A DNA stretch of 64,000 bases, from NCBI GenBank assembly GCA_963847445.1, contig CAWJZV010000048.1, positions 64,001-128,000 on the forward strand, given 5' to 3'. The notes below the pieces were generated by a model. It searched no databases. It was given only the letters and a program-made list of their open reading frames with translations, and was not told the DNA's origin. This document shows, one piece after another, positions 59,052-64,000 of this stretch; positions within the stretch are counted from its first letter, which is position 1, and every line of letters starts with the position of its first letter. The stretch is from an uncultured delta proteobacterium. Lineage in GTDB: Bacteria > Desulfobacterota > Binatia > UBA9968. Both the position numbers and the translations under genes were made by a program.

Positions 59052-59157
59052 GACAGAGATTGGAGATAGAGATTTGAGATAGAGAATAAAGATAGAGAAT
59101 CGAGTTCGCCGAGCCTCTTGATCCGGTCTCTGTCTCTAATCTCTGTCTCGCATCTCA
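59052..59157. repeat. AGAGAT/ATCTCT 6-bp-periodic inverted repeat inside the carboxylase operon
   Basis: gacagagattggagatagagatttgagatagaga...tctctgtctctaatctctgtctc. Confidence 0.75.
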
Positions 59158-59159
59158 TT

Positions 59160-60712
59160 CTACAGTGGAATATTCCCATGCTTCTTGGGCGGATTGTGAT
59201 CCTGCTTGTTCTTGAGCATTTCCAAGGCGCGGATCAAGGTCGGCCGGGTGTCCTCGGGATAGACGATGCCGTCGACATAGCCCGACTCGGCGGCTTTGAA
59301 TGGATTGGCGAAGGTCTCGCGATAATTGTTGACCAGCTCGTCGCGGGTCTTGGCCGGGTCGGCCGACTTCTCGCAGTTCATCGCGGAAGACGATGTTGAT
59401 CGCTCCTTCCGGCCCCATGACCGCGATCTCGCCGGTGGGATAAACTAAATTGACATCGCCGCGCAGATGCTTGCTCGCCATGACGATATAGCCGCCGCCG
59501 TAAGCCTTGCGCGTGACGATGGTGACTTTCGGCACCGTCGCTTCGGCATAGGCGTAAAGCAACTTCGCGCCATGGCGAATGATGCCGTGATATTCCTGCT
59601 CGGTGCCGGGCAAGAAACCCGGCACGTCGACAAACGTAACGATCGGAATATTGAAACAGTCGCAGAAACGGATGAAGCGCGCCGCCTTCACCGAGGCATT
59701 GATATCGAGACAGCCGGCCAAGTGATTCGGCTGATTGGCGACAATGCCGATGGAGCGGCCGCCAATATGAGCGAAGCCGATTAGAATATTGCGCGCGAAC
59801 TCCGGTTGGACTTCGTAGAAATAACCTTCGTCCACCACCGCGCCGATCAACTCTTTCATGTCGTAGGGGCGGTTGGGATTGTCGGGGATGATATCTTTGA
59901 GTCGCTTGTCGCGCCGCAGCGGATCGTCGTTGGTCGGCCGAAACGGCGGATCTTCCTGATTGTTGCTGGGCAAAAAACTGATCAGCTCGCGGATCATCAG
60001 CAAGCAGTCCTTTTCGGTATTGGCGGTAAAATGCGCCACGCCGCTCTTGCCCGTATGGGTCTCCGCGCCGCCCAAGTCTTCTTTGGTCACCTCTTCATGG
60101 GTCACCGTCTTGATCACGTCCGGACCGGTGATGAACATGTAGCTGTTGGTCTTGATCATGAAAATGAAATCGGTGATCGCCGGCGAATAGACTGCGCCGC
60201 CGGCGCACGGGTCCCATGATCGCGGTGATCTGCGGCACCACACCCGACGCCATGACGTTGCGTTGGAAGATATCGCCGTAACCGGCAAGACTATCGACGC
60301 CTTCTTGAATGCGCGCGCCGCCGGAGTCGTTGATGCCGATCAGCGGCGCGCCGTTCTTGATCGCCATGTCCATGACCTTGCAGATCTTGTCGGCGACCAC
60401 GCGGCTCAGGCTGCCGCCAAAAACAGTGAAGTCCTGCGAGTAGACATAGACGAGCCGGCCGTCGATGGCGCCGTAACCGGTGACCACGGCATCGCCGAAA
60501 AATTTTTGTTTATCGAGACCGAAGTCGGTGCTGTGGTGCGTGCGCAGGCGGTCGATCTCGACGAAACTGCCGCTATCGAGAAGAATGTCGAGACGCTCGC
60601 GCGCCAAAAGTTTACCCTGTTCATGCTGGCGGCGCGCGCGTTCGGCGCCACCGCCAGCTTCGGCCTTGTCGTTAAGTTCGCGGAGTTTGTCGAGATTGTT
60701 AGCGATCGTCAT
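59160..60712 (-). CDS. pccB: Acyl-CoA (propionyl-CoA-type) carboxyltransferase beta subunit (frameshifted)
   Basis: [51 protein letters not shown]. Confidence 0.93.
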
Positions 60713-61067: not shown

Positions 61068-62262
61068 ATGTTCGAAGCGAAGGCAAAGCCGACAAACACC
61101 ATCGAGCGGCTCCGCGCCGCAACCGATCCAACTCAAACCGAACCAGGCGATTCTGCTTTACGCCGCCAGCGAAGGCGACGCCAACATGCTTTACGCCACC
61201 GGTTTCTTCGTGCCCGATCCGTTTATTTTTTTTCAGCACAAGAACCATCGCCACATCGTCATGAGCGATCTGGAGATCGACCGCGCCAAGAAGCAAGCCC
61301 ATGCCGACCGGGTTCTGTCTCTGTCGCTGTATCAGAAGAAGCTGCGCAAGCTCGGCAAGTCGCCGGCGGCGGTCATCGACATCGTCGATTTGATTTTTCG
61401 CGAGCGCGCCATTCGCTCGCTGATCGTGCCGGCGAACTTCTCCGCGCTTCTGTTGGACCAGCTGCGCGCCAAGGGCTACAGCGTGCAGATCAATCGCGAC
61501 CCCTTCTGGCCCCAGCGCGAGACTAAGAATAATCTCGAAGTAAAACAGATCACCGAATCCCTGCGCATCGCCCGGCTCGGCCTGGAAGCCGGCATCCGCA
61601 TGCTCAAACGGACCAAGACCAAACGCGACGGCTATCTCTATCTCAACGGCACGCGGCTGACATCCGAAATGCTCAAGACCGCGGTCAACACGACGATCAT
61701 GGCGCAAGGCTGGCTGCCGAGCCACACGATCATCTCGTCGGGCAACCAATGCGTCGATCCGCACCATGAAGGCACGGGTCCGATTCGGGCGAATACCTCG
61801 ATCATCTTCGATATCTTTCCGCGCTCCCAACACAATGGTTATTTCGGCGATTTGAGCCGCACCGTGGTGCGCGGCCGGGCGTCGGAAAAACTAAAAGAGA
61901 TCTACGCCACGGTCCAAGCCGGCCAGCAGATCGGCTACGCGCAGATCCGCGACGGCGTCAACGGCAAGGAAGTGCACCAGAATATTTTGCACATGTTCGC
62001 CGCGCGCGGCTTCCCGACTGGGAGAATCAACGGCCGCATGCAGGGATTCTTTCACGGCACCGGTCATGGCTTGGGTTTGGATATTCACGAGCCGCCGCGC
62101 ATCGCCCCGATTGACGCAGTCCTGCGCACCGGCCATGTGGTCACCGTGGAACCGGGACTCTATTACATCGGCGTCGGCGGCGTCAGACTGGAAGATGTCG
62201 TCGTGGTCAAGCCCAAAGGCAATCGCAACCTCACCGATTGCCCGCAGTTTTTAGAAATCTAA
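61068..62262 (+). CDS. M24 Xaa-Pro peptidase (start uncertain)
   Basis: PH, FDIFP, YFGDLSRT, HGTGHGLGLDIHE, TVEPGLY, GVRLED. Confidence 0.92.
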
Positions 62263-62293
62263 ATCGGCTAACTTCTCGCGTTGGAGTTCGCTC

Positions 62294-62998
62294 ATGACCA
62301 CCGAGCCACGCGAGCTCGCCGATCTCATCGCCGCCCTCGATCATCCCGACAAGCCGACGATCCGCGCCGCCGTCGATAAGCTAATCGCGTTGGCCGAGAC
62401 TTCCGAAACTCTCAGACAAGCACTCCACAATCGCCTCAGCGAAGCGGGTCACAGAAACTATTGGCCGGTCGCCTACATTCTCGGCCATCAAGCCCGGCCT
62501 TCGGGACTTGTGATTCGCACGCTGCTCGACGCCCTCGACCACCGCGAACCGGATATCCGCTGGGCCAACGGCCTACTGCTCGTGCGCATCGCCCACCAGG
62601 AACGCGCCGTGGTACCGCTGCTGATCGAGCTGTGTGAAACCGGCAGCGCCAATCAGAAACGCATGGCGCTCTACTGTCTGCGCGACTTAGCTTTGAACGA
62701 TGCTGAGAGTCGGCTAGCAATGTTGACGGCGTTGGAAGACAAAGAACCGACAGTCCGCGTCGCCGCCGCAACCAGTCTGAAAGTGAGAACCGATGTCGAT
62801 CGCGCCGTTCGGCAAAAGCTGCTAGCGACTTATTTGCATGATGCCGACGACCGCGTGAAGAACGTAATCGCCGTAACCCTGGCGAGTCTAGGGTCGCCGG
62901 ATGAAGAATTTATGCGGGCGTTGAACGAAGCGAGCCGGAGCGGCAATGGGCAGATCAAAAAGAGCGCCGACGCGGCACTTAAGATGCTGCAAAAATAA
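62294..62998 (+). CDS. HEAT-repeat protein
   Basis: Repeated L..ALD...P.IR.AA-like helical units. Confidence 0.8.
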   Translation: MTTEPRELADLIAALDHPDKPTIRAAVDKLIALAETSETLRQALHNRLSEAGHRNYWPVAYILGHQARPSGLVIRTLLDALDHREPDIRWANGLLLVRIAHQERAVVPLLIELCETGSANQKRMALYCLRDLALNDAESRLAMLTALEDKEPTVRVAAATSLKVRTDVDRAVRQKLLATYLHDADDRVKNVIAVTLASLGSPDEEFMRALNEASRSGNGQIKKSADAALKMLQK

Positions 62999-63044
62999 AA
63001 AGGCCCGCTACACTCGGCAGCTTGCGCGACCGGTGCAGCGGGCC
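62992..63044 (-). terminator. Intrinsic terminator of the small transcript
   Basis: ggcccgctgcacc...gtgtagcgggcc followed by tttttattttt on the minus strand. Confidence 0.8.
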
Positions 63045-63112
63045 ACTGCGGTGGCTGAGGGAGATTCTCAGGCTCTAGGCCCGAATCTCCATTCAGAGTC
63101 GCCGCCTAGAGC

Positions 63113-63154
63113 CTAAGTCTCAGCCACCTCACAGCCAGTACTTAAATCAATCAT
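63113..63154 (-). CDS. 13-aa peptide MIDLSTGCEVAET
   Basis: ATG lies 2 nt after the extended Shine-Dalgarno; TAG lies inside the hairpin. Confidence 0.55.
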   Translation of the reverse strand: MIDLSTGCEVAET

Positions 63155-63186
63155 GTCTGGACCACCTCCTTTCCCTGCTGATTATT

Positions 63187-63240
63187 AGTTTACGAAAGTG
63201 TTTTTTCTCTGTCAATAAAATAACGTAAAAAAAATAAATT
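63187..63240 (-). promoter_or_regulatory. Sigma70 promoter with AT-rich UP-like element
   Basis: TTGACA (63215-63210), 17-bp spacer, TAAACT (63192-63187), A/T tract at 63216-63240. Confidence 0.85.
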
Positions 63241-63333
63241 GATTCAAACGTTGCACTCACAGCGATCGACAACTCTAACGGCCTTGCTCGGCAAAATCCT
63301 CCAAGCATGACGGCAGACCGTCAAGTTTCGATT

Positions 63334-64000
63334 CTAATCCCCATAAAGCTTTTTGATAAACCCACCCTGCTCCAGTTCCTTCAAATAACTCACGTCGATG
63401 AAACTCTCCGGCGCGAGACTCTTGGCCTTAGGCGTGCGCGTGCCGATCTCGTCAAGCACCATTTGAATGCCTTTGATCGTCGGGTACGGCACGCGCGGCA
63501 TCACTTTGACGGCATAGTGCTGATAGGTTTCCTCCAAAGCGTCGGGATCGGTCATGCGCGAATACTTGCCGATAACTTTCGCCGCGAAAGCTTTATCGGT
63601 TTTGAAGCGGTGCAGCCCTTCGACGTAGGCGCGCAGATAACGGCGGACAGTGTCGGGCGCTTCGCGCATGTACGAGCGGGTCGTCACGACGCCGGCGCCC
63701 TGGTAGTCGACACCGATGGCGCTCAAATCGGCGAGCAAGCTGAAACCGAGCTTGGCCGCTTGCAGATGAAGCGGCGAAGAGAGCATACCGCCGTCGATCG
63801 CTTTCGAAGCCAAGCCAGCGACAGTTTCTTGCGTACCGCCCATTTGAATCAGCGCCACATCACGGTCGGGCTGCAATCCCCACTGGCCTAAAACATAGCG
63901 CAGAAGGAAATCATCCGAGGTGCCGAAGCGGGTGATGCCGATCTTCTTGCCTTTCAAATCCTCGCGCCGCTTGATCTCCGGCTTGACCATGATCTTCTGG
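63334..64000 (-). CDS. ABC substrate-binding protein, NMT1/SsuA-like (5' part outside window)
   Basis: EDLKGKKIGITRFG, PDRDVALIQ, FIDVSYLKELEQGG. Confidence 0.88.
   Translation of the reverse strand, partial: QKIMVKPEIKRREDLKGKKIGITRFGTSDDFLLRYVLGQWGLQPDRDVALIQMGGTQETVAGLASKAIDGGMLSSPLHLQAAKLGFSLLADLSAIGVDYQGAGVVTTRSYMREAPDTVRRYLRAYVEGLHRFKTDKAFAAKVIGKYSRMTDPDALEETYQHYAVKVMPRVPYPTIKGIQMVLDEIGTRTPKAKSLAPESFIDVSYLKELEQGGFIKKLYGD

What the first reader, a model, noticed from the sequence alone, without database searches (positions are those of the whole stretch)
62992..63240. Stand-alone small transcript with ~17-nt complementarity to the 16S rRNA 3' end, a 13-aa ORF and a long hairpin
Seen on the minus strand: an AT-rich UP-like tract, TTGACA-17-TAAACT, then within a few nt of the predicted start GAAAGGAGGTGGTCCAG (63173-63157). 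On the + strand this reads CTGGACCACCTCCTTTC, 16 of 17 identical to the conserved 16S tail CTGGATCACCTCCTTTC, and the one difference gives a G-U pair. Next comes the ORF MIDLSTGCEVAET*, whose 3' half, a second GAGGTG and the stop codon are buried in a nested hairpin (GGTGGCTGAG/CTCAGCCACC and AGGCTCTAGGC/GCCTAGAGCCT). An intrinsic terminator follows, with no downstream gene on that strand, so it is not an attenuator leader. Established: normal Shine-Dalgarno pairings are about 4-9 nt, and over-long ones slow ribosome escape. Inference: an abundant RNA that captures 30S or 70S ribosomes (a sponge, hibernation or 16S-end protection factor, perhaps favouring leaderless mRNAs), or an mRNA for a tiny peptide. 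I do not recognise a named family for it.
Basis: partly seen in the sequence, partly recalled or inferred. Interest (0 to 1): 0.85.

Follow-up and report, generated by a model that had tools for sequence, protein, structure and literature searches.

The report
Ribosome-loading small RNA, Ms_IGR-5 family
This is a real, expressed small RNA of a named but unstudied family (Ms_IGR-5) that starts with an unusually long match to the ribosome's 16S RNA tail and carries a tiny reading frame running into a folded RNA domain, so it probably works by engaging ribosomes.

Summary
On the minus strand a TTGACA-17-TAAACT promoter, an 18-nt stretch that can pair with the organism's own 16S 3' end, a 13-codon ORF, a nested hairpin and a terminator are all at the stated places. 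In the 7.19-Mb genome only this site and the antisense of the 16S gene itself pair 17 nt or more with that tail.

It does have a name. It is a full-length, just sub-threshold match to Rfam RF02471, Ms_IGR-5 (42.9 bits, cut-off 45, E 1.6e-8). An orthologue in the same genus scores 46.2 bits.

Homologues occur in Actinomycetota, the window's own class, and the phyla of a Solibacteraceae, a Leptospira and a Dehalococcoidia record. They keep:
- the 15-18 nt 16S complementarity;
- an in-frame start;
- a stop exactly three codons after an invariant GAGGUG;
- covarying helices.

The peptide itself is hypervariable. Metatranscriptome contigs from four studies cover just this transcript.

Best reading: a translated, ribosome-engaging structured sRNA. 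Its function is unknown. The pure sponge idea is untested and less likely.

The parts
63187..63240 (-). Promoter: AT-rich tract 63216-63240, -35 TTGACA 63215-63210, 17-nt spacer, -10 TAAACT 63192-63187
   Evidence: Read. The promoter scan scores it 10 of 12. The same TTGACA-17-TAnnnT layout is kept in 30 of 30 relatives' loci examined.
62991..63179 (-). Whole transcript, about 185-190 nt. The predicted start is near 63179-63181 and the end lies in the T-tract.
   Evidence: The Rfam match spans 62995-63179 and model R1 spans 63047-63180. Metatranscriptome contigs of 4 studies cover 62995-63171, 62984-63169, 62975-63169 and 62916-63169. The start is inferred from the -10 box, not mapped.
63157..63174 (-). 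Extended Shine-Dalgarno (SD1): 18 nt able to pair with the 16S 3' end CUGGAUCACCUCCUUUCU, with 2 G-U pairs
   Evidence: Conserved across the family.
63135..63160 (-). Hairpin P0: CCAG (63160-63157, the 3' part of SD1) pairs with CUGG (63138-63135). It encloses the start codon.
   Evidence: Minimum-free-energy fold. In Actinomycetota the equivalent helix shows covariation (helices 1-2). Its register differs between lineages, so support is weaker for this copy.
63113..63154 (-). 13-codon ORF MIDLSTGCEVAET plus TAG stop
   Evidence: Start, frame and stop position are conserved in 110 of 110 homologues, 30 of 30 and 100 of 100.
63125..63130 (-). Invariant GAGGUG (SD2, the Glu-Val codons), always 3 codons before the stop. 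Its GGUG starts helix P1.
   Evidence: That it acts as an internal SD is an inference.
63119..63128 (-). Helix P1, 5' strand (inside the ORF)
   Evidence: 10 pairs, 6 with changes on both sides.
63050..63059 (-). Helix P1, 3' strand CUCAGCCACC
63070..63114 (-). Inner hairpin A: 63114-63104 pairs with 63080-63070. The stop codon lies in its 5' strand.
   Evidence: helices 4-5: 10 pairs, 9 with changes on both sides.
63060..63090 (-). Pseudoknot: loop GGAGAUUC (63090-63083) pairs with GAAUCUCC (63067-63060). The latter contains the family-wide GAAUnCC junction motif.
   Evidence: 8-10 contiguous pairs with compensatory variants in the window's class; weak or absent in most other lineages.
62991..63044 (-). 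Intrinsic terminator: long hairpin 63044-63002 plus T-tract 63001-62991
   Evidence: The scan finds only its inner part.
62294..62998 (+). Convergent HEAT-repeat gene, a conserved neighbour in this class. Any link to the RNA is inferred, not shown.
   Evidence: Pfam HEAT_2. Present in 34 of 40 loci of the class at 37-100% identity, whereas the other neighbour is kept in only 5 of 40.

Best explanation
The element is this lineage's orthologue of the Ms_IGR-5 small RNA (Rfam RF02471). It is a stand-alone transcript of about 185 nt, driven by its own promoter and ended by its own terminator.

Shown:
- About 6 nt from the predicted 5' end sits a maximal ribosome-binding site, 15-18 nt complementary to the 16S 3' tail.
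- A 13-codon ORF follows.
- The ORF's last six codons begin with an invariant GAGGUG. They form the 5' strand of helix P1, which closes a pseudoknotted domain.
- The stop codon sits at the P1/inner-hairpin junction.
- Across phyla the following are conserved: the long 16S complementarity, an in-frame start (often weak: UUG, GUG, apparently CUG), the exact stop position and the helices. The peptide is not conserved.

Inferred mechanism:
- The product that matters is the ribosome-RNA encounter rather than the peptide.
- A 30S subunit docks on the single-stranded AAGGAGGUG. Pairing can then spread into GGUCC(AG), displacing hairpin P0 and presenting the start codon.
- The bound or translating ribosome shields the 5' end, as STAB-SD does.
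- The ribosome must melt P1 and hairpin A to reach the stop. At that point GAGGUG lies 6 nt 5' of the P-site codon, a normal SD spacing.
- The RNA would therefore toggle between a closed form (P1 and pseudoknot folded) and a ribosome-opened form.

The downstream output of that switch is unknown.
For: Family:
- Full-length RF02471 match, 42.9 bits, E 1.6e-8.
- 35 of 41 related genomes (G000 included) have one copy each; G014 scores 46.2 bits, over the cut-off.
- No other Rfam family matches homologues from five lineages.

Expression:
- 16 RNA runs listed.
- Contigs from 4 studies cover only the transcript; one has depth 35 in a 47-million-letter run.
- The family is RNA-seq validated in S. lividans (PMC8079986, passages) and is an sRNA transcription unit in S. 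avermitilis (PMC8780764, passage).

16S complementarity:
- Unique in the genome; -31.7 kcal/mol.
- 16-18 nt in 29 of 30 Rfam-found Actinomycetota.
- Kept in Leptospira-type copies through wobble changes, and in two Acidobacteria-type copies despite a 1-nt bulge.

Translation:
- 110 of 110 homologues have an in-frame start and a stop at the fixed codon. They give 71 distinct peptides; stops are TAG 98, TGA 6, TAA 6.
- 30 of 30 likewise in the independent set.
- A stop sits at that position in 100 of 100 in frame 0, against 0 of 100 in each other frame.
- ORF length varies in whole codons.
- Ribosome footprints on homologues (PMC4974804).

Peptide not conserved: Cys is replaced by Arg, Pro, Leu, Glu or His.

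Structure:
- Covariation score 0.329, against 0.152 in shuffles (0 of 500 reach it) and 0.027-0.067 with slid partners.
- 77.3% of cells paired, against 26-52% slid.
- Many compensatory P1 variants.

Plausibility:
- 30S binding to a 5' SD blocks RNase J (PMC4113751, passage).
- The genome encodes RNase J, 601.6 bits.
Against: - No translation or ribosome-binding data exist for this organism.
- The footprints reported in mycobacteria also cover classical ncRNAs such as 6C and F6, so they are not specific. I could not see that paper's supplementary dataset.
- 9 of 30 Actinomycetota copies lack ATG, GTG or TTG at the conserved start place; I read them as CTG (8) or ATA (1) starts.
- Frame 1 also has an open start in 41 of 100, so start-codon statistics alone are weak.
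- The register of P0 differs between lineages, and the strand-invasion step is pure inference.
- Pairing beyond 16S G1530 would need the base of helix 45 to open (recalled 16S structure).
- The pseudoknot is well supported only in the window's class.
- The fixed GAGGUG-to-stop distance could be set by the RNA fold rather than by the ribosome.
- Within the window's class the peptide is fairly conserved (M-[IS]-D-x-C-x-x-C-E-V-[AT]-E-T), so a peptide role there is not excluded.
- No target or output is known.
Confidence: 0.5

Rival explanations
1. Ribosome sponge or 16S-tail binder. The RNA acts by sequestering 30S or 70S particles, or protecting the 16S 3' end, through its 15-18 nt duplex. Translation of the ORF would be incidental.
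For: - The complementarity is the longest in the genome and the family's most conserved block.
- It is placed at the extreme 5' end.
- Apparent abundance in metatranscriptomes.
- A second SD-like GAGGUG is present.
- Ribosome footprints in mycobacteria.
Against: - A sponge needs no start codon, no reading frame and no stop. Yet all three are kept, with stop identity changing while its position is fixed.
- There is one copy per genome. To titrate ribosomes the RNA would have to approach ribosome numbers, which nothing here measures.
- The 3' part of the complementarity is sequestered in hairpin P0 in the predicted free RNA.
Confidence: 0.15
2. Micropeptide gene. The 11-16 residue peptide is the functional product, and the RNA structure only tunes its synthesis or stability. 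In the window's class it is a Cys-x-x-Cys peptide, possibly working with the neighbouring HEAT-repeat protein.
For: - The ORF is conserved and has a very strong RBS.
- Within the class the peptide is fairly conserved, with synonymous changes at Asp, Cys and Thr codons.
- A HEAT-repeat gene is adjacent in 34 of 40 loci despite rearrangement of orientation.
Against: - Family-wide, only Glu-Val survive, and those six bases are also a P1/SD-like RNA element.
- Residues after Val change together with compensating changes in the P1 3' strand.
- The Trp/Arg/Gly position keeps the bases GGA while the residue changes.
- The HEAT neighbour is not found beside more distant class members (L191-L193) or in other phyla.
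Confidence: 0.15
3. Ordinary trans-acting base-pairing sRNA. Its regulatory seed lies in the 3' domain or terminator loop. The 5' SD and mini-ORF serve only as a stabiliser (STAB-SD-like).
For: - Stand-alone sRNA architecture with a terminator.
- The 5' SD stabiliser precedent and RNase J in the genome.
- Actinomycetota and the Dehalococcoidia copy keep a GUCC-containing apical loop in the terminator hairpin, seen by eye in the alignment.
Against: - A stabiliser alone does not explain the fixed stop position or P1 overlapping the ORF.
- The GUCC loop is absent from the window's copy.
- No target was sought or found here.
Confidence: 0.15
4. Cis-acting leader or attenuator in which ribosome stalling in the mini-ORF controls read-through of the terminator into a downstream gene.
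For: - Short ORF, alternative pairings and a terminator resemble an attenuator.
- Some homologues have a same-strand gene downstream (L050, L090, L040).
Against: - Here the next gene is convergent.
- Neighbours differ in every phylum examined.
- P1 does not share bases with the terminator stem.
- Three of four metatranscriptome contigs end at the terminator region.
Confidence: 0.03

Closest known systems
Rfam RF02471, Ms_IGR-5 (Actinobacteria sRNA, found in M. smegmatis; function unknown)
   Same: - Full-length alignment to all 184 model positions.
- Shared blocks: GGAAGGAGGUGGUCC, the start region, UGUGAGGUGGCUG, GAAUnCC and CAGnCACC.
- A terminator hairpin, one copy per genome, stand-alone.
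   Different: - Scores 42.9 bits, under the 45-bit cut-off.
- Lies outside Actinomycetota.
- ATG rather than TTG start; 13 rather than 12 codons.
- Long perfect inner hairpin and an 8-bp pseudoknot.
- Lacks the GUCC terminator loop.
- Rfam's structure line pairs the SD with the GAGGUGGCUG region and leaves the P1 3' strand unpaired, whereas covariation supports P1.
STAB-SD 5' mRNA stabiliser of B. thuringiensis cry3A (PMC4113751, passage read)
   Same: An SD-like sequence at the very 5' end pairs with the 16S 3' end, so that a bound 30S can block 5'-to-3' decay. RNase J is encoded here.
   Different: STAB-SD does not direct initiation and sits far upstream of a long gene. Here a start codon follows and the ORF is conserved. 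The complementarity is about twice as long.
Extended, start-codon-proximal SD-aSD helices of S. aureus mRNAs (PMC13009471, passages read)
   Same: Pairing continues 3' of the core SD into the GAUCA part of the 16S tail. It is associated with weak, non-AUG start codons.
   Different: There it adds two pairs on ordinary mRNAs. Here it adds 5-8 pairs on an RNA with no long gene, and it competes with an intramolecular hairpin.
Dual-function sRNAs and free-standing leader RNAs with mini-ORFs (SgrS/SgrT, RNAIII/hld, rnTrpL/peTrpL; recalled, not looked up)
   Same: A small structured transcript that is also translated.
   Different: In those cases the peptide is conserved and the base-pairing function is known. 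Here the peptide is not conserved and no target is known.

Membership tests
Rfam RF02471 Ms_IGR-5 | Infernal score at or above the curated gathering score (45 bits) | tested here: not met
   42.9 bits, E 1.6e-8, model positions 1-184 of 184; no hit at gathering threshold. The orthologue in G014 reaches 46.2 bits. I file it as a divergent member on homology, not on the cut-off.
Rfam RF02471 Ms_IGR-5 | Conserved sequence blocks of the family consensus in the same order | tested here: met
   Alignment to the consensus. A joint model R1 built from both lineages finds one hit in each of 100 of 100 loci at 30-119 bits.
Rfam RF02471 Ms_IGR-5 | Shared secondary structure supported by covariation | tested here: met
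   covariation 0.329 against 0.152 in shuffles (0 of 500). P1 has 6 of 10 pairs and stem A 9 of 10 pairs with changes on both sides. Caveat: the alignment was fitted to the model.
Rfam RF02471 Ms_IGR-5 | Taxonomic scope Actinobacteria (family description) | tested here: not met
   Near-identical copies sit in records titled Ca. Binatia, Deltaproteobacteria and Syntrophobacter MAGs. The family is also found in the phyla of a Dehalococcoidia, a Solibacteraceae and a Leptospira record. The scope is wider than the name.
Rfam RF02471 Ms_IGR-5 | Independent small transcript | tested here: met
   Own promoter and terminator. Metatranscriptome contigs are limited to it (contigs give weak evidence for ends).
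STAB-SD type 5' stabiliser | SD-like sequence near the 5' end that does not direct initiation | tested here: not met
   A conserved start codon follows at 5-10 nt and the frame is conserved. It may work like STAB-SD but is not one by definition.
Transcription attenuator leader | A regulated gene downstream on the same strand | tested here: not met
   Convergent gene here; variable neighbours elsewhere.
tmRNA / tRNA-like | tRNA-like domain and tag ORF detected by ARAGORN | tested here: not met
   0 genes in 62000-64000.
Ribosome-sequestering (sponge) RNA | Stoichiometric, translation-independent binding of ribosomes | not testable with these tools
   Needs gradients, copy numbers and toeprints. 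Only the sequence potential and non-specific footprints in relatives are available.

The most novel reading that the evidence does not exclude
Ms_IGR-5 RNAs are a widespread class of ribosome-gated RNA switches. The 16S 3' tail invades the RNA by toehold pairing (AAGGAGGUG, then GGUCCAG), opening hairpin P0. The ribosome then translates a content-free mini-ORF and is parked at the stop codon by a second, internal SD (GAGGUG) in front of a pseudoknot. The RNA would thereby report or buffer the pool of free ribosomes: a translated ribosome sensor or parking site, neither a peptide gene nor a base-pairing sRNA.
Probability: 0.2. Interest if true: 0.85.

Novelty: new member of a known kind. Interest (0 to 1): 0.6.

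Why it matters
Ms_IGR-5 is listed as an actinobacterial sRNA of unknown function. In the paper searches I ran, nothing describes its anatomy or role. One search found 3 papers, and all only list it. Searches found nothing on its peptide, its SD string or a mechanism.

This work shows four things:
- The family reaches well beyond Actinomycetota.
- Its most conserved trait is a 15-18 nt complement of the 16S 3' end.
- It carries a mini-ORF whose translation, not whose peptide, is conserved.
- That ORF is interlocked with covarying helices.

Together these give a concrete, testable hypothesis for an abundant, widespread soil-bacterial RNA. Culturable, non-pathogenic carriers such as M. smegmatis and Streptomyces are available for testing it. 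If ribosome engagement is the function, it would be a new way for cells to use SD-antiSD pairing.

Tried and rejected
- Rfam at gathering threshold on the whole window found 0 hits. The family appeared only with the E-value threshold. The other weak hits there (mir-550, CC2171, PinT and others, 8-23 bits) were rejected as chance.
- A DNA search of the own genome for further copies found none. The other 10 matches were 15-26 nt scraps or the element's own palindrome.
- The 16S-fragment idea is rejected. Only the 18 nt resemble the antisense of the 16S end, and the flanks do not.
- The first P1 finder picked spurious helices in about a fifth of sequences. I replaced it with a junction-motif-anchored finder. 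Even that failed for L064, L070 (truncated locus), L072, L074, L092 and L104, and it chose an alternative helix in 8 sequences of one family.
- MAFFT alignment A1 put the window's lineage one column out of register at the 3' end. I therefore built model R1 and realigned.
- The pseudoknot test gave a mean of 4.8 contiguous pairs against 3.7 in shuffled loops. Only 26 of 100 sequences reached p <= 0.1, so I do not claim the pseudoknot for the whole family.
- The start-codon frame control was weak: 92 of 100 in frame 0, 41 of 100 in frame 1 and 0 of 100 in frame 2.
- Two of the three hits in the phylum of the Dehalococcoidia record (L195, L196) look like false positives by eye.
- Neighbour-gene analysis across phyla found no common neighbour.
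- The HEAT-repeat neighbour got no specific family name: NCBIfam gave only a spurious 19.6-bit hit, and PDB gave only designed alphaRep repeats.
- The literature string search was swamped by the universal 16S reverse primer (1,211 papers). None of the 25 listed held the window's own 13-mer.
- In the metatranscriptomes the flanking genes had no cover in the four runs laid.
- I did not run protein-complex prediction (the peptide is under 30 residues), structure prediction or large protein searches. None bears on a 13-residue ORF.
Full report
WHAT IS THERE. On the minus strand I read, in order:
- an AT-rich tract (63216-63240);
- TTGACA (63215-63210), 17 nt, TAAACT (63192-63187);
- GGAAAGGAGGTGGTCCAG (63174-63157);
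- ATG (63154);
- a 13-codon ORF, MIDLSTGCEVAET, ending in TAG (63115-63113);
- an outer helix (63128-63119 with 63059-63050);
- an inner hairpin (63114-63104 with 63080-63070);
- a long terminator hairpin (63044-63002) and a T-tract (63001-62991).

The promoter scan scores the hexamers 10 of 12. The RNA folds at -99.1 kcal/mol, z = -7.75. ARAGORN finds nothing. The next gene downstream is a convergent HEAT-repeat gene. Upstream on the same strand lies an NMT1-like binding-protein gene.

IS THE 16S MATCH REAL AND UNUSUAL? The genome's own 16S ends GGCTGGATCACCTCCTTTCT. The RNA can form 18 contiguous pairs with it, two of them G-U. Across both strands of the 7.19-Mb genome, runs of 17 or more occur only here and on the antisense of the 16S gene itself. 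The predicted duplex is -31.7 kcal/mol, below all 20,000 random genome windows (minimum -28.2); the core 9-mer alone gives -14.0.

IT HAS A NAME. At Rfam's gathering thresholds the window has no hit. With E-value reporting the element aligns end to end with RF02471, Ms_IGR-5, 'Actinobacteria sRNA'. The score is 42.9 bits against a cut-off of 45, E 1.6e-8. It is single-copy. In 41 related genomes (G000 included), 35 have exactly one match at E <= 0.01, and one (G014) exceeds the cut-off at 46.2 bits.

Three papers mention the family, and all only list it:
- RNA-seq validated in S. lividans (PMC8079986, passages);
- an sRNA transcription unit in S. avermitilis (PMC8780764, passage);
- ribosome-protected in M. 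abscessus and M. smegmatis, together with 6C and F6 (PMC4974804, section 9 read).

A review of mycobacterial sRNAs does not mention it by name (PMC7017587, term search). I found no functional study.

HOW WIDE IS THE FAMILY? The 80 listed were mostly Actinomycetota: Mycobacterium and relatives, Streptomyces, Kitasatospora, Gordonia, Brachybacterium and Saccharopolyspora. Others were titled Ca. Binatia, 'Deltaproteobacteria' or Syntrophobacter-type MAGs (near-identical to the window's copy), Thermodesulfobacteriota, Solibacteraceae, Dehalococcoidia and Leptospira weilii. Prevalence in even samples:

| Query | Sample | Genomes with a match |
|---|---|---|
| RF02471 | Actinomycetota | 44 of 151 (20 over the cut-off) |
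| R1 | window's own phylum | 4 of 151, all in its class; 0 of 146 in other classes |
| R1 | phylum of the Solibacteraceae record | 12 of 151 |
| R1 | phylum of the Leptospira record | 13 of 151 |
| R1 | phylum of the Dehalococcoidia record | 3 of 151 (two look false) |

R1 is the joint covariance model I built. Rfam gives these copies no other name. Each count includes the genome the sample was centred on. Absences are 'not found in those searched'.

WHAT IS CONSERVED.

1. The 16S complement.
   - In 30 Actinomycetota copies found with the Rfam model, not with my pattern, the contiguous pairing potential is 16-18 nt in 29; the remaining one has a single mismatch.
   - Substitutions are mostly A-to-G or C-to-U on the RNA side, which keep a wobble pair.
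   - Leptospira-type copies differ at two places, both wobble-compatible.
   - Two Acidobacteria-type copies carry a 1-nt insertion yet keep both halves.
2. A reading frame.
   - All 110 copies have an in-frame ATG, GTG or TTG 5-10 nt after AAGGAGGTG.
   - All 110 have a stop exactly six codons after the Cys codon. They encode 71 distinct peptides.
   - In the independent 30, the stop is again exactly three codons after GAG-GTG in 30 of 30.
   - In those 30 the stops are TAG 21, TGA 6 and TAA 3. The starts are TTG 12, CTG 8, ATG 5, GTG 4 and ATA 1.
   - A stop sits at that position in 100 of 100 in this frame and 0 of 100 in the other two.
   - ORF lengths differ by whole codons.
3. Not the peptide.
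   - The Cys is Arg, Pro, Leu, Glu or His in other actinobacteria; only Glu-Val is constant.
   - The residues after Val change together with compensating changes in the distal strand of P1.
4. Structure, on 100 distinct sequences aligned to R1.
   - 77.3% of cells pair, against 26-52% with slid partners.
   - Covariation is 0.329, against 0.152 in shuffles (0 of 500) and 0.027-0.067 slid.
   - P1 has 6 of 10 and the inner stem 9 of 10 pairs with changes on both sides.
   - The alignment was fitted to the model, which favours it. The raw P1 variants make the same point without a model.
5. A junction motif, GAAUnCC, precedes the P1 3' strand almost everywhere. In the window's class it pairs with the inner loop over 8-10 bp with compensatory variants, forming a pseudoknot. 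Elsewhere this pairing is near chance.
6. Hairpin P0 pairs the 3' part of the SD complement (GGUCC...) with codons just before GAGGUG. It covaries in Actinomycetota but uses another register in the window's lineage.

EXPRESSION. Sixteen RNA runs are listed as holding at least part of the stretch. I laid four, each from a different study. Each gave one contig: 62995-63171, 62984-63169, 62975-63169 and 62916-63169. One had depth 35 in a run of only 47 million letters. All four stop within 3 nt of each other, 8-10 nt short of the predicted start. Three end at or just past the T-tract. Contigs cannot prove ends or strand, so this is a hint, not a map.

CONTEXT. Neighbours differ between phyla: aminotransferase IV and a solute-binding protein in a mycobacterium, and CoA-transferase, MFS, protease, esterases and others elsewhere. 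Within the window's class a HEAT-repeat gene lies beside the RNA in 34 of 40 loci, from 100% down to 37% identity and in two different orientations. The other neighbour is kept in only 5 of 40. The protein has no specific family assignment.

HOW IT MOST LIKELY WORKS.

Shown:
- a stand-alone RNA whose conserved properties are a maximal ribosome-binding site at its 5' end;
- a short ORF of arbitrary coding content but fixed end point;
- helices that the ORF's own codons help to form.

Established elsewhere:
- SD-antiSD helices can extend towards the start codon and accompany weak start codons (PMC13009471);
- a 30S bound to a 5' SD blocks RNase J (PMC4113751);
- this genome encodes RNase J.

Inferred:
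- the ribosome is loaded with very high affinity;
- extension of the 16S pairing into GGUCC competes with P0 and exposes the start;
- translation must melt P1 and the inner hairpin;
- with the stop in the A site, GAGGUG lies 6 nt 5' of the P-site codon, where an SD normally sits, so it could hold the terminating ribosome.

The RNA would thus alternate between a folded form and a ribosome-opened form. What that controls is unknown. I put 0.5 on this general reading: translated, ribosome-engaging, with the peptide irrelevant family-wide. Membership of the family I hold at about 0.9.

RIVALS.
- A translation-independent sponge (0.15) does not explain the start, frame and stop.
- A peptide gene (0.15) fits the window's class and its HEAT neighbour but not the family.
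- A base-pairing sRNA with a mere stabiliser (0.15) does not explain the fixed stop.
- An attenuator (0.03) is contradicted by context.

VERDICT. The element is a divergent member of a known but uncharacterised family whose range and anatomy are wider and more interesting than its Rfam entry says.

Noticed in passing
window 62294-62998 (+), and loci L011-L039, L053, L075, L091, L092, L095, L102: A HEAT-repeat protein gene of about 200-234 residues stays next to the RNA in 34 of 40 loci of this class, from 100% down to 37% identity. It is convergent in some and upstream on the same strand in others. The other flank is not conserved. A functional link is possible.
   Followed up: partly
window 59155-60712 (-): An acyl-CoA carboxylase carboxyltransferase-like gene appears as two overlapping ORFs in different frames (60095-60712 and 59155-60288). 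This suggests a frameshift, a pseudogene or an assembly error.
   Followed up: no
G000 contig C48, about 6 kb beyond the window's end (minus strand): This is the only other non-rRNA site in the genome that pairs 15 nt with the part of the 16S tail that includes the core SD complement. It is followed directly by ATG, so it looks like an ordinary gene with a very strong RBS.
   Followed up: no
Actinomycetota loci (e.g. L050, L059, L042) and the Dehalococcoidia locus L108, terminator hairpin: The apical loop of the terminator hairpin keeps a U-G-U-C-C motif that could pair with the GGAC(A) of the ORF, the same bases that pair with the SD extension in P0. This hints at a three-way competition. The motif is absent from the window's copy (seen by eye).
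   Followed up: no
window 62963-62979 (-): A second terminator-like hairpin with a T-run lies just downstream of the main terminator, antisense to the end of the HEAT gene. One metatranscriptome contig runs through to 62916.
   Followed up: no
loci L172, L175, L176, L180-L182, L184 (Actinomycetota): At the conserved start position these copies have CTG instead of ATG, GTG or TTG, in frame with the fixed stop. This suggests CUG initiation driven by the extended SD.
   Followed up: partly
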